From Eledone cirrhosa (lineage: Eukaryota), in NCBI GenBank assembly GCA_964016885.1, contig OZ024743.1, positions 274,598,001 through 274,662,000 of the forward strand: a stretch of 64,000 nucleotides of DNA, given 5' to 3'. Below the pieces are notes generated by a model. The model did no database searches. It was not told the origin of the DNA and saw only the letters and a list, made by a program, of their open reading frames with translations. Shown here piece by piece: positions 20,677 to 62,284 of this stretch. A program made the position numbers and the translations under genes. Positions within the stretch are counted from its first letter, which is position 1. Every line of letters starts with the position of its first letter.

Positions 20677-20884
20677 ATATTGTTATACTTTGGGAGGGTC
20701 ATGTTGCCAATAAGAAACACACGCACCAGTTGATTTCACTTCAATTTATTATAATAAATTGAAGTGAAATCAACTGGTGCGTGTGTTTCTTATAGGCAAC
20801 ATAACCCTCCCAAAGTATAACAATATCGGTTTCAACACACGTTTTCAGATAAAGAATCTTGCTAAACAAATTCAGAAACGAAAT
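20677..20884. mobile_element. Family A pLTR-end hairpin (75-bp arms, no loop) plus ~58-nt tail in (TA)n
   Basis: Palindrome centred on ttaTAa at ~20751; sequence equals the 3' end of the PLE at 22760-22892. Confidence 0.85.
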
Positions 20885-20892
20885 ATATATAT

Positions 20893-21168
20893 ACAGTATT
20901 TTCCGTAGTGTTGTAATATGAATATTACACACAGTAGATGGACAGCTCACGTAGAGTTTGCTCGACGGTTCCAGTTGTAGTTTCAAAAGTAATCCGGAGA
21001 AAATAGAAGGATTTAAATGGATACAGTTCAGTTAAAAGGAATTTATTGACACGTGTTTCAATAACAGTTACATAACCTGAAAACAACTGCTATCTACAAA
21101 GTATTAGTTATGCAGACATTCAATATTTCAATGTTATTATCAACTGTCATTTCATCAGAATAATTCTG
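20893..21168 (-). mobile_element. Family B pLTR with tail and long-stem-II hammerhead
   Basis: 21003-21168 is rc of 23432-23593; minus TTATT CTGATGA aatgacagtt..aactgttatt GAAA cacgtg TC AATAA at 21043-21163. Confidence 0.8.
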
Positions 21169-21169
21169 A

Positions 21170-57209: not shown

Positions 57210-58886
57210 TCTATATATATATATATATATATATATATATATATATATATATATAAAAGCGAGGATGTGTGTGTGTCTGTGTACAACTTTGGATACCTAA
57301 GGCTTTTACAATTACCAACAGAATTTGACCAAATTTTCTGTGAACGTTGCACAGCTCGCTAAGATGGTCACATCACAAAAATTTTCAAATCGACCCACGT
57401 TGAGCAATAAAAAATCGATATCAATATTATCGGTAGCAAAATTGATGTAAGGGTGATAACCAACTTTATTGACAGTCCTTATAAAAAAGGGAGATAACCA
57501 ACTTTATTGACAGAAATATAAACATCAGATTCATTTGAAGATAAATCACTAATATTATCGTTTGTTTCTTGTTTATTCTTTGTTGCACTTTCAAAGTTAA
57601 AAAAACACTTGTTGTTTTAACTTGTTTCACTATATTAAGTGTTAATTTTCGCGTTAAGAGCCTAATCTTGCAGCAGTCTCGAATTGACGAGATTTTGATG
57701 ATGGTTTGTTTATCTTTAGAACAATCGTTATGGGACTTTCCATTCAAACCATTGGGACCTACAACTTTTACATTTTTAAAACTTTCATAAGCCATGTTGA
57801 CACTCCGTCATGACGGATACTCACTGTATCGCTGTATAAGACCCGAAGGTGGTGGATTCACAGCAAGGGTTGGCAAACATGAGGTTGCTGGATGTCCACG
57901 GATATATAAATCTATTGATAATGTATGTGATCCACAGGATGCGGTCAATTATCCAGTTGAATTTCTAAATTCTTTAAATCCTCTTGGTTTACCTCCTAAT
58001 ACATTGGTTCTGAAAGAGGGAACGCCAGTTGTTTTGCTGAGAAATATCACTCCTCCAAAACTATACAATGGTACACGCCTTGTGGTTAAAAATCTGTCTC
58101 CACTTAGTATTGACGCTACCATTCTATCCGGATCTGGAAAAGGCGAGGATGTGATATTAACAAAAATTAGCCTGACTACATCAGGCGTGGATACTCCCTT
58201 CTCCTTTCGCCAAACCCAATTTCCTCTTCGTGTTGCTTTTGCGATGTCCATAAACAAGTCGCAACGTCAAACTCTGTCCGTCACTGGAATTCACTTGGAT
58301 GAACCTTGCTTTTCAAACGAACAATTCTACGTTGCCTGCTCACGAGTTGGCAGTAGAGATAATCTCTTTGCGTTTGTTCCGAAAAGAAAAACAAAGAATA
58401 TCGTATATCCTGAAGTGCTTTAGTGTTAACAAAAAAACGTATTACAGCTCTGCCGTGACTTCACCTTACTCATTACAAAACATACCAATGAATATATCAT
58501 GCAGGATATTTTGGATTATAAGTTAAAAATTTAACCATACACAGCAAAGTATGCTCTCAAAGAATAGATTTTCTCTTATTCTACTCTCATTGTTTTTTTG
58601 TTTGTATACAACTCTGCTTTCATTACAACTTTTTGTACTTTAGCAAAACTGCCTGTTTTTTTACAGATTTGCAACGTGTATTGCCTTTAATAATTTATAT
58701 AACTACATCCTGTTCAGTGTTTTCCTTCATTATCAGCATAGTTTTATGTGTACAAAGATTGCATTAATTATTGAAGACTTCTGCTTATTTTGACAGGTTG
58801 GGGACAAATAATGTTCTTCTTTTACTTCCTAGCTGTATATTCTTGGCATAATTTCAAACCCCGAGCTACGCCGGTAAACCTGCTAG
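57210..58886 (+). mobile_element. Internally deleted Helitron
   Basis: 5' TC(TA)n-aaaag; 3' ccgagctacgccgg hairpin then CTAG at 58883-58886; internal helicase fragment. Confidence 0.85.
57895..58423 (+). pseudogene. PIF1-family helicase C-terminal fragment (Helitron RepHel)
   Basis: YPVEFLNSL..LRNITPPKLYNGTRL..RQTQFPLRVAFAMSINKSQRQTL..YVACSRV..TKNIVYPEVL; substitutions in KSQGQ and HGQLY motifs; no N-terminal domains. Confidence 0.9.
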
Positions 58887-61800
58887 TATATATATATATA
58901 TATATATATATATATATATATATATATATATATATATATATATATATATATATATAGATAGATAGATAGATAGATATATATATATATATATATATATATG
59001 TATAGATAGATATAGATATATATATATAGATATATATATATATATAGATATATATATATATATATAGATATATATATATAGATATAGATATATATATATG
59101 TATATAGATATATATATATATAGATATATATATATAGATATAGATATATATATATAGATATATATATATATATATATATATATATATAGATATATATATA
59201 TATAGATATATGTATATATATATATATATATATATATATATATATATATATATATATATATATATATATAGATATATATATATATATATATATATATATA
59301 TATATATATATAGCTATATATATATATATATAGATATAGATATATATAGATATATATATATAGATATATATATATATATATATAGATATATATATATATA
59401 TATATATATAGATATATATATAGATATATATATATATATAGAGATAGATATATATATATATATAGATATATATATATAGATATATATATATATATATATA
59501 TATATAATATATATATATTATATATATATATATATATATATATATATATAGATATATATATATAGATATATATATATATATATAGATATATATATATAGA
59601 TATATATATAGATATATATATATAGATATATATATATATAGAGAGATATATATATAGAGATATATATAGATATATATATATAGATATATATATATATATA
59701 TAGATATATATATATAGATATATATATATATAGAGATAGATATATATATATATAGATATATATATAGATATATATATATAGATATATATATATATAGAGA
59801 TAGATATATATATATATAGATATATATATATAGATATATATATATAGATATATATATATATAGATATATATATATATATATATATATATATATATATATA
59901 TATATATATATATATATATGTATATATATAGATATATATATATATATATAGAGATATATATATATAGATATATATATATATATATATATATATATAGATA
60001 TATATATATAGATATATATATATAGATATATATATATAGATATATATATATAGAGAGATATATATATAGAGATATATATAGATATATATATATAGATATA
60101 TATATATATATATAGATATATATATATAGATATATATAAATATATGTATATAGATATATATATATATAGATATATATATATAGATATATATATATATAGA
60201 TATATATATATAGATATATATATATATAGATATATATATATATATATATATATATATATATATATATATATATATATATATTTATAGATATATATATATA
60301 GATATATATATATATATATAGATATATATATAGAGATATATATATAGATATATATATAGAGATATATATATAGATATATATATATATAGAGAGAGATATA
60401 GATATATATATAGATATATATATATATATATATATATATATATAGATATATATATATATATAGATATATATATATATAGATAGATATATATATATATATA
60501 TATATATATATATATATATATATATATATATATATATATATATATATATATATATATATATATATATATATATAGATATATATATATAGATATATATATA
60601 TATATATATATATATATATATATATATATATATATATATATATATATATATATATATATATATATATATATATATATATATAGATAGATAGATAGATAGA
60701 TATATATATATATATATATATATAGATATAGATATAGATATATATATATAGATATATATATATATATATAGATATATATATATATATATAGATATATATA
60801 TATAGATATAGATATATATATATAGATATATATATATATATATAGATATATATATATATATATAGATATATATATATAGATATAGATATATATATATGTA
60901 TATAGATATAAATATATATAGATATATATATATGTATATAGATATATATATATATAGATATATATATATAGATATAGATATATATATATATATATATATA
61001 TATATATATATATATATATATATATATATATATAGATATATATATATATATATATAGATATATATATATAGATATAGATATATATATAGATATATATATA
61101 GATATATATATATATATATATATATAGATATATATATATATATATATATATATATATAGATATATATATATATATATATATATAGATATATATAGATATA
61201 TATATATATATATATATATATATAGAGAGATAGATATATATATATATATAGATATATAGATATAGATATATATATATATATATAGATATATATATATAGA
61301 TATATATATATAGATATATATATATATAGAGAGATATATATATATATAGAGATATATATATAGAGATATATATAGATATATATATATATATATATATAGA
61401 TATATATATATAGATATATATAGATATATGTATATAGATATATCTATATATAGATATATATATATAGATATATATATATATAGATATATATATATAGATA
61501 TATATATATAGATATATATATATAGATATATATATATATATATATATATATATATATATATATATATATATATATATATATATATATATATATATATATA
61601 TAGATATATATATATATATATATATATATAGATATATAGATATATATATAGAGATATATATATAGATATATATATAGAGATATTATATAGATATATATAT
61701 ATATAGATATATAGATATATATATATAGAGAGAGAGATATAGATATATATATAGATATATATATATATATATATATATATATATATATATATATATATAG

Positions 61801-62033
61801 AGATATATATATATAGAGATAGATATATATATATATAGATATAGATATATATATATATATATATATATATATATATATATATATATATAGATATATATAT
61901 AGATATATATATATATATATATATATAGATATACATATAGATATATATATATATAGATATATATATATATATAGATATATATATAGATAGATAGATATAT
62001 ATATATATAGATATATATATATATATATATAGA
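58887..62033. repeat. ~3.1-kb (TA)n array with GA interruptions
   Basis: Directly visible. Confidence 0.97.
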
Positions 62034-62284
62034 TATTTCGTTTCTGAATTTGTTTAGCAAGATTCTTTATCTGAAATCGTGTGTTGAAACCGATATTGTT
62101 ATACTTTGGGAGGGTCATGTTGCCAATAAGAAACACACGCACCAGTTGCTTTCACTTCAATTTAATTTAATATATATTTATAAATTTATAAATTTATAAA
62201 TATATATTAAATTAAATTGAAGTGAAAGCAACTGGTGCGTGTGTTTCTTATTGGCAACATGACCCTCCCAAAGTATAACAATAT
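62034..62284. mobile_element. Family A pLTR-end hairpin (~95-bp arms) plus tail, opposite orientation
   Basis: Same termini as 20677-20884 and 25550-26342. Confidence 0.88.

What the first reader, a model, noticed from the sequence alone, without database searches (positions are those of the whole stretch)
20677..62284. Three independent insertions share identical asymmetric termini with a fixed ~58-nt unpaired tail
Seen: at 20677-20884, 25550-26342 and 62034-62284 the inverted arm always stops at ..cccaaagtataacaata|(TA)n. The sense arm always runs ~58 nt further to ..cagaaacgaaa|(TA)n, as in the coding copy (22892). Arm length varies (75, ~290, ~95 bp). Inference: there are two fixed nucleotide positions, consistent with an internal RT initiation site annealing to TA target DNA plus a defined RNA end, and a variable fold-back point. 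This is a direct readout of the integration mechanism.
Basis: partly seen in the sequence, partly recalled or inferred. Interest (0 to 1): 0.75.

Follow-up and report, generated by a model that had tools for sequence, protein, structure and literature searches.

The report
Two-start, twin-primed Penelope retroelement ends
These mirror-image inserts are cut-short ends of a very abundant Penelope-like jumping gene whose copies stop at two fixed points 60 bases apart, nearly always one at each end of an insert, likely because both strands of the cut TA-repeat target start copying the same RNA at two internal sites; the layout is a known one.

Summary
The three hairpins are independent, truncated copies of a Penelope-like retrotransposon (family A; 21,292 exact core matches). 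Ends are sharply bimodal, 60 nt apart: 90 of 100 unselected arms stop exactly at E1 or E2. This is the known PLE inverted pseudo-LTR plus tail, which Frangieh 2024 traced in vitro to two internal RT start sites. E2 is not an RNA end: 464 copies read through it into A's own ORF. The 'coding copy' ORF belongs to an unrelated Hydra-clade family B. One-way fold-back fails because either arm can be longer (21 vs 17 of 51). New detail: 61 of 63 A pairs and 19 of 19 B pairs carry one end of each type. Partner arms share a template. Both A sites lie in AATATCG, matching the (TA)n target, and E2 junctions slip by 2 nt (2,734) far more than by 1 nt (97). Best model: twin target-primed reverse transcription with target annealing (about 0.6). 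This scan already reached twin priming for other families in this genome. No RNA evidence was obtained.

The parts
20677..20826 (.). Family A hairpin 1: two 75-nt arms joined at the internal 18-nt palindrome (-76); left arm ends at E1
20827..20886 (+). 60-nt tail of hairpin 1 (E1 to E2); in read-through copies it encodes about residues 10-29 of A's ORF
20889..21165 (-). Family B (Hydra clade) inverted arm ending at B's long end, with 113-nt tail; separated from hairpin 1 by a 10-nt TA tract
21159..22581 (+). 5'-truncated, frameshifted RT + GIY-YIG ORF of family B, not of family A
22596..22894 (+). Solo family A arm ending at E2, replacing about 0.3 kb of B's 3' UTR; inner joint at an AGG(G/C)ACA microhomology
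22895..23595 (+). Rest of family B 3' UTR and pLTR with hammerhead core near 23441, ending at B's short end in (TA)n
25551..25845 (-). Family A hairpin 2, E1-ended arm (295 nt)
25856..26344 (+). Family A hairpin 2, longer E2-ended arm including the unpaired spacer and the tail 26285-26344
25979..25988 (.). GCGCATGCGC palindrome, NRF1-like site (motif identity recalled), about 20-35 nt upstream of the 5'-end hot spot
   Evidence: sequence; hot spot
26018..26027 (+). CAAAATGGCG, YY1-like site (motif identity recalled), at or just inside the 5'-end hot spot
   Evidence: sequence
26074..26118 (+). Minimal hammerhead ribozyme motif: stem I, CUGAAGA, stem II, GAAA; predicted cut after 26113, activity untested
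   Evidence: sequence; fold (z -1.2); no hammerhead family among Rfam matches
26259..26261 (+). Predicted start codon of family A ORF, 25 nt upstream of E1
62033..62092 (-). 60-nt tail of hairpin 3
62093..62284 (.). Family A hairpin 3: two identical 96-nt arms joined at the internal AT-rich palindrome (about -103); right arm ends at E1

Best explanation
These are 5'-truncated, head-to-head insertions of a Penelope-like retrotransposon that end at two fixed sites 60 nt apart, likely made by twin target-primed reverse transcription on one RNA. Shown: two sharp ends inside the start of the ORF, one of each per insertion, either arm longer, arms from one template, ATAT shared with the target at both ends. 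Inferred steps: the GIY-YIG nuclease nicks both strands of (TA)n about 12 nt apart; each 3' end anneals to one AUAU in a read-through RNA that spans the pLTR-ORF junction; each of two RT units (a dimer is predicted for the lizard enzyme) takes one site; the two cDNAs stop independently, often at the RNA 5' end near -260 or at internal palindromes, and are joined head to head, bluntly or by microhomology.
For: Ends: of the first 100 places of an internal 22-mer (chosen blind to ends), 41 stop exactly at E1, 49 exactly at E2, 9 within 7 nt of either, 1 reads through. Genome-wide exact counts: E1+TA 15,557, E2+TA 12,590, E2 read-through into the ORF 464. Coupling: 61 of 63 typed A pairs are E1+E2 (p 4e-16 against independent choice; 3 of 66 pairs with atypical ends set aside); a second pairing method gave 53 of 56; unrelated family B gives 19 of 19 (read by eye, window copy included). 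Either arm longer: E1 21, E2 17, within 15 nt 13, of 51; B 6, 8 and 5 of 19. One template: partner arms differ by 2.8% against 8.3% for other arms, lower in 25 of 25 pairs with 150 nt or more of overlap. Annealing: both A sites are AATATCG; B's two sites share TAT and TATATAT with the target; E2 junctions shifted by one TA period number 2,734 against 97 shifted by 1 nt, and the shifted form occurs in 2 read-through copies against 464. Staggered nicks: 3 of 63 pairs show a 12-16 nt duplication with a G/C marker, 0.28 expected from shuffled pairings. RNA 5' end: 22 of 55 inner ends between -130 and -400 fall in -245 to -263, 3.9 expected. In print: PAc nicks and extends both strands, starts at two internal sites that bound the tail, and is predicted to be a dimer (PMC11167929).
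Against: No biochemical or RNA data for this family; the promoter and the RNA are inferred. 13 of 51 pairs are near-symmetric against 3.2 expected, many at palindromes, which fold-back also predicts. Long palindromes can lose their centres asymmetrically after insertion (own knowledge), which could mimic independent arm lengths, and gene conversion could make arms alike. 18 of 21 pairs with a G/C near a junction show no duplication. About half of insertions (62 of 128 as first called) had no partner arm called, though 7 of 24 solo E1 arms turned out to have an E2 partner and 9 solos belong to a sister family. The 2-nt shift could arise later by microsatellite slippage. In vitro PAc showed no strand difference in start-site use and no RNA-target homology, so strict coupling and annealing are not predicted by that paper. 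None of the 20 read-through copies examined has its upstream pLTR starting at -245 to -263.
Confidence: 0.6

Rival explanations
1. Nuclease resolution: a hairpin or double-stranded cDNA intermediate is cut by the element's own GIY-YIG nuclease at the two target-like ATAT sites, staggered by 60 nt, and later loss of the palindrome centre randomises arm length.
For: Explains strict one-of-each coupling, identical arms and ATAT at both sites. Craig et al. state the tail most likely results from EN-mediated resolution (PMC8557442 section 6). Excess of symmetric joints.
Against: Needs one-sided deletions of up to 2.5 kb that spare the other arm, in both directions. Long arms ending at the -260 hot spot have partners as short as 15-25 nt. 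PAc gives the two ends directly as RT start sites.
Confidence: 0.2
2. One reading: one cDNA starts at a defined RNA end (E2), folds back at a variable point and is copied as far as E1.
For: Fits the symmetric hairpins at internal palindromes (5 inner ends at -76, 13 at -96 to -107), including window hairpins 1 and 3, and the 17 of 51 pairs with a longer E2 arm.
Against: E2 is inside the ORF with 464 read-through copies. The E1 arm is longer by more than 60 nt in 20 of 51 pairs, which copying of an E2-primed strand cannot give.
Confidence: 0.08
3. Two independent priming events without annealing: protein-RNA contacts alone fix the two starts, as in PAc, and the ATAT match is incidental or used only in repair.
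For: PAc starts at sites not homologous to the cut DNA. The elements are AT-rich, so 3-4 nt matches are common.
Against: Same 7-mer at both A sites, TA matches at both B sites, and a 28-fold excess of 2-nt over 1-nt junction shifts. Off-site ends at -6 and +45 also sit at A/T runs. The sister family's second end wanders among AT-rich positions.
Confidence: 0.1
4. Segmental duplication or assembly artefact of microsatellite-rich DNA.
For: Flanks are long TA tracts, which assemble poorly.
Against: No shared non-TA flanks; more than 21,000 dispersed core matches with different inner joints; TA loose ends at E1 also appear in contigs of three public runs (one may be the source sample).
Confidence: 0.02

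Closest known systems
Canonical EN+ Penelope-like insertions with inverted pLTR and one-sided tail (Arkhipova 2013 PMC3846280, passages seen; Craig 2021 PMC8557442, sections 6, 11, 12 and passages seen)
   Same: 5' truncation, partial tandems, adjacent inverted copy, tail often at only one end, ORF starting inside the pLTR and continuing through the tail (Adineta Pen2a), 8-10 bp TSDs, palindromes at the inverted joint, hammerhead in the pLTR, (TA)n targets.
   Different: Tails here are 60 nt (A) and 113 nt (B) against 30-40 in print. Those papers explain the tail by nuclease resolution and the inversion by antisense self-priming; the passages seen give no counts of end coupling or arm length.
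Poseidon_Ac (PAc) in vitro (Frangieh 2024, PMC11167929; parts 1-2 of 4 of the text read, supplementary figures not seen)
   Same: Two internal RT start sites in the start of the ORF bound the tail; AT-rich target; both strands nicked and extended; dimer predicted; template must include ORF sequence beyond the sites.
   Different: PAc start sites are described as not homologous to the target and are used alike by both strands; here both sites match the target and are used one per strand in 61 of 63 pairs.
L1 twin priming (recalled, not read here)
   Same: Both target strands prime on one RNA and the cDNAs are joined by microhomology, leaving an inversion inside one TSD.
   Different: In L1 the second primer lands at a variable upstream site and the pieces do not overlap; here both primers use fixed neighbouring sites and copy the same stretch, giving an inverted repeat.
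Hydra-clade PLEs (Craig 2021 section 11)
   Same: Family B, whose ORF lies in the window, has the listed motifs and (TA)n targeting.
   Different: Family A is not Hydra: no significant protein similarity to B, and it has the CCHH-type nuclease.

Membership tests
EN+ Penelope-like element (family A) | Single ORF with RT and C-terminal GIY-YIG nuclease | tested here: met
   1239-aa open frame in L088 with RT motifs at 690, 819, 864 and VVYSIRC..YIGET at 1134-1156. Atlas neighbours at 0.96-0.98 carry RVT_1, HTH_animal and GIY-YIG. Pfam scan and PDB sequence search gave no hit.
EN+ Penelope-like element (family A) | Partial tandems forming pLTRs, with inverted 5'-truncated copy and one-sided tail | tested here: met
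EN+ Penelope-like element (family A) | Hammerhead ribozyme motif in the pLTR | tested here: met
   Core and stems I-II at 26074-26118 by sequence and fold. Rfam gave no hammerhead match. Cleavage untested.
EN+ Penelope-like element (family A) | RT groups with PLE RTs in a tree | not tested
   No reference PLE proteins were available as usable sequences.
Neptune / Nematis clades (family A) | CX2-5CxxC linker before the nuclease and CCHH motif | tested here: met
   C-x4-CxxC at 1113, cysteines in the core, histidines at 1167 and 1183. The short C-x4-CxxC-x7-C spacing matches the Nematis rows of Craig Fig. S2 by eye.
Neptune / Nematis clades (family A) | DKG motif and no insertion between RT motifs A and B | tested here: not met
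   DKS, and 131 residues between motifs A and B against about 60-65 in the canonical rows of Craig Fig. S1 by eye. Clade left unassigned.
Naiad / Chlamys (family A) | N-terminal nuclease; no canonical hammerhead in Naiads | tested here: not met
   Nuclease is C-terminal and a hammerhead motif is present.
Hydra clade (family B, window ORF) | RWK, DKT, CxCX5C linker, no CCHH, CxxC and CxH near the end, hammerhead, (TA)n target | tested here: met
   RRVRWK and DKT in L244; CNCTYPDNC, FCKLC, FCRH in the window frames; definition. No tree built.
Two-internal-start mechanism as in PAc | RT initiates at both sites on the RNA | not testable with these tools
   Needs purified protein; the genomic signature is met.
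Non-LTR retrozyme (non-autonomous hammerhead repeat) | No coding partner in the unit | tested here: not met
   Arms run continuously into A's own ORF.

The most novel reading that the evidence does not exclude
Penelope-like elements integrate by coupled twin priming: a reverse-transcriptase dimer assigns one target strand to each of two fixed AUAU sites on a single RNA, with base-pairing to the TA repeat as telomerase does with its template, so the tail and the inverted repeat are two products of one step. Family A, with a 70-residue insertion in the RT fingers and a C-terminal nuclease, may also be an unnamed PLE lineage.
Probability: 0.45. Interest if true: 0.62.

Novelty: new member of a known kind. 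Interest (0 to 1): 0.42.

Why it matters
The integration cycle of Penelope-like elements, the sister group of telomerase, is only outlined, and how their inverted repeats form is not settled in the papers read. A family with about 30,000 sharp ends gives large counts that constrain models: one end of each type per insertion, either arm longer, one template, 2-nt register slips. These yield direct tests with an existing in vitro system. The architecture itself and the two-start origin of the tail are known, which caps the surprise.

Tried and rejected
RNA ends: one search found only assembled contigs and one RNA run with 5% of the words; its matches were mostly in simple repeats, so transcript ends could not be mapped. 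Rfam on 20000-30500 gave 112 sub-threshold hairpin matches and no hammerhead. Pfam gave nothing for 4 of 4 proteins; PDB sequence search nothing. Naiad was my first guess and was dropped (nuclease is C-terminal). A non-autonomous retrozyme reading was dropped when arms ran into an ORF. The window ORF as A's partner was rejected. A strict TSD script scored 0 of 46 because it demanded the full ATAT on both sides; a looser one scored 3 of 63. Folding of the junction RNA is not significant (z -1.5). Folding 60 nt behind each end showed a hairpin after E2 in A and B but no matching pair at equal spacing after E1 (single-sequence folds only). BLAST filters (35 nt, 78%) found no arm in 2 fetched loci and missed partner arms in a few others, so solo counts are too high. 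Paper searches returned no paper that treats Penelope elements with twin priming or describes this family; the library lacks most subscription papers, and supplementary figures of PMC11167929 were not seen. No large protein search or structure prediction was run.
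Full report
Observation. The three hairpins, their shared short end (E1) and long end (E2) and the arm lengths are as described. Their flanks share no non-TA sequence. The distance between equivalent bases of the two ends is 60 nt, and both ends lie in the word AATATCG, so the last ATAT is shared with the flanking repeat.

What the element is. An internal 22-mer has 21,292 exact matches in the 3.0-Gb genome. Longer copies run upstream into a GIY-YIG coding region and, in tandem copies, downstream through E2 into the start of the same ORF. 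Locus L088 holds a 1239-residue open frame whose predicted start codon lies 25 nt upstream of E1, so both ends and the tail are inside the ORF. The pLTR has a minimal hammerhead motif. Pfam, Rfam and PDB sequence searches did not recognise these parts; Atlas neighbours carry RT and GIY-YIG families. This is an endonuclease-bearing Penelope-like element, family A. Its nuclease linker is of the Neptune/Nematis type, but DKS and a long insertion between RT motifs A and B leave the clade open.

The 'coding copy' is a chimera. The ORF at 21159-22581 is 95% identical over 229 residues to a different element, family B, and has no significant similarity to A's protein. B has the Hydra-clade motifs. 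In 24 of 24 other copies of this ORF end the sequence continues into B's own 3' UTR. In the window a solo A arm sits in B's internal TA tract and replaces about 0.3 kb, joined at a short microhomology. B's own insertion spans 20889-23595, with its long end on the inverted arm and its short end on the ORF-bearing arm.

End census. Of the first 100 places of the internal 22-mer, all fetched and chosen blind to their ends, 41 stop exactly at E1, 49 exactly at E2, 9 within 7 nt of either and 1 reads through; 87 are followed by a TA repeat. Exact genome counts: E1 then TA 15,557; E1 read-through 13,265; E2 then TA 12,590; E2 read-through 464, of which 12 lie in one short tandem array.

Pair census. 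I added 36 regions picked from the E1 and E2 lists, which fixes one arm but not its partner. Of 128 insertions, 66 were head-to-head pairs; 3 had an atypical end; of the other 63, 61 were E1+E2. A second method gave 53 of 56 typed pairs. Family B gave 19 of 19, one read-through pair set aside. In 51 simple mixed pairs the E1 arm reached further 5' in 21, the E2 arm in 17, and 13 were within 15 nt, against 3.2 expected by shuffling. Seven of 24 'solo' E1 arms have an adjacent E2 partner, some only 15-25 nt long. Partner arms are closer to each other than to other arms in 44 of 49 pairs, and in 25 of 25 with 150 nt or more of overlap. Inner joints of 56 simple pairs: 21 overlap by 2 nt or more, 19 are blunt, 16 have extra bases (from BLAST ends).

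Target contact. Both A sites and both B sites share 3-7 bases with (TA)n. At E2, junctions shifted by one TA period number 2,734, those shifted by one base 97, and the shifted form is in 2 read-through copies against 464 normal ones. So the shift arises at or after insertion and keeps the repeat's register, as annealing predicts; later slippage is not excluded. Three of 63 pairs show a 12-16 nt duplication with a G/C marker (0.28 expected); 18 of 21 pairs with a nearby marker do not.

Inner-end hot spots. 22 of 55 inner ends between -130 and -400 fall at -245 to -263. An NRF1-like palindrome lies upstream and a YY1-like word at or just inside this spot (motif identities recalled; PMC11269187 passages say NRF1 sites favour upstream and YY1 sites downstream of human start sites). 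I infer a transcription start and run-off copies; Penelope has its promoter in the pLTR (PMC2377424 passages). Against this, none of 20 read-through copies has its upstream pLTR starting there, and no RNA data were usable. Other hot spots are internal palindromes at -76 and about -103, used by window hairpins 1 and 3.

Mechanism. Twin target-primed reverse transcription on one read-through RNA, one target strand per site, with annealing to AUAU, accounts for all of the above (0.6). Nuclease resolution of a hairpin followed by centre deletion is the main rival (0.2). One-way fold-back from an RNA end fails on read-through and on longer E1 arms (0.08).

Comparison with print. Inverted pLTRs, a one-sided 30-40 nt tail, ORF start inside the pLTR and TSDs are described (PMC3846280 passages; PMC8557442 sections 6, 11, 12, passages and supplement parts 53-54). 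PMC11167929 (parts 1-2 of 4 read; supplementary figures not seen) shows two internal starts bounding the tail, extension of both strands and a predicted dimer, but reports no target homology and no strand difference. My searches found no paper with end-coupling counts or twin priming for these elements; that is limited to the library held. A 2026 preprint on retrozymes had no passage on tails. Earlier unreviewed notes of this scan reach twin priming for other families in this genome; I had that reading before looking, and none matched this sequence.

Verdict. Real, abundant, and a new member of a known kind, with useful quantitative constraints on mechanism. Interest 0.42.

Noticed in passing
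L088:1325-5041 (-): Family A RT has DKS and 131 residues between motifs A and B, about twice the canonical PLE spacing, together with a C-terminal nuclease with a Nematis-like short linker; possibly an unnamed PLE lineage.
   Followed up: partly
window 20889-23595: Family B (Hydra clade; 467 exact matches of a 30-mer) has a 113-nt tail in its 5' UTR and many inner ends near -150 to -180, at the 5' edge of its hammerhead.
   Followed up: partly
L090, L091, L102, L093, L104: Internal pieces that begin 33-175 nt inside the ORF and run back through the pLTR, suggesting template jumps onto RNA that extends beyond E2.
   Followed up: partly
L013:3000-3125, L156, L174, L202, L221: A sister family shares E1 exactly but its second end wanders over several AT-rich positions.
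   Followed up: partly
window 25059-25490, 23637-23830, 32373-32780, 10778-11028: Further TA-flanked hairpins of other families, the first three with one-sided tails of about 35, 70 and 75 nt.
   Followed up: no
window 27700-29876 (-): A second, frameshifted Hydra-type RT + GIY-YIG element with RWR, DKT and CxCX5C.
   Followed up: partly
window 8961-10061 (-): Uninterrupted 366-residue frame that reads like a rhodopsin-type GPCR (DRY and NPxxY words), likely a host gene (identity from recall).
   Followed up: no
window 12861-14305 (-), 24282-24752 (-), 36344-36889 (-), 57791-58423 (+): Fragments that look like another PLE RT-nuclease, an RTE-type LINE, a Tx1/L1-type LINE and a Helitron helicase (by eye).
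   Followed up: no
window 40199-41344: Tandem array with a 63-nt unit keeping an open frame of 381 residues.
   Followed up: no
G000:C1:132947045-132947577: Twelve copies of the E2 read-through junction at 46-nt spacing, a minisatellite made from the junction.
   Followed up: no
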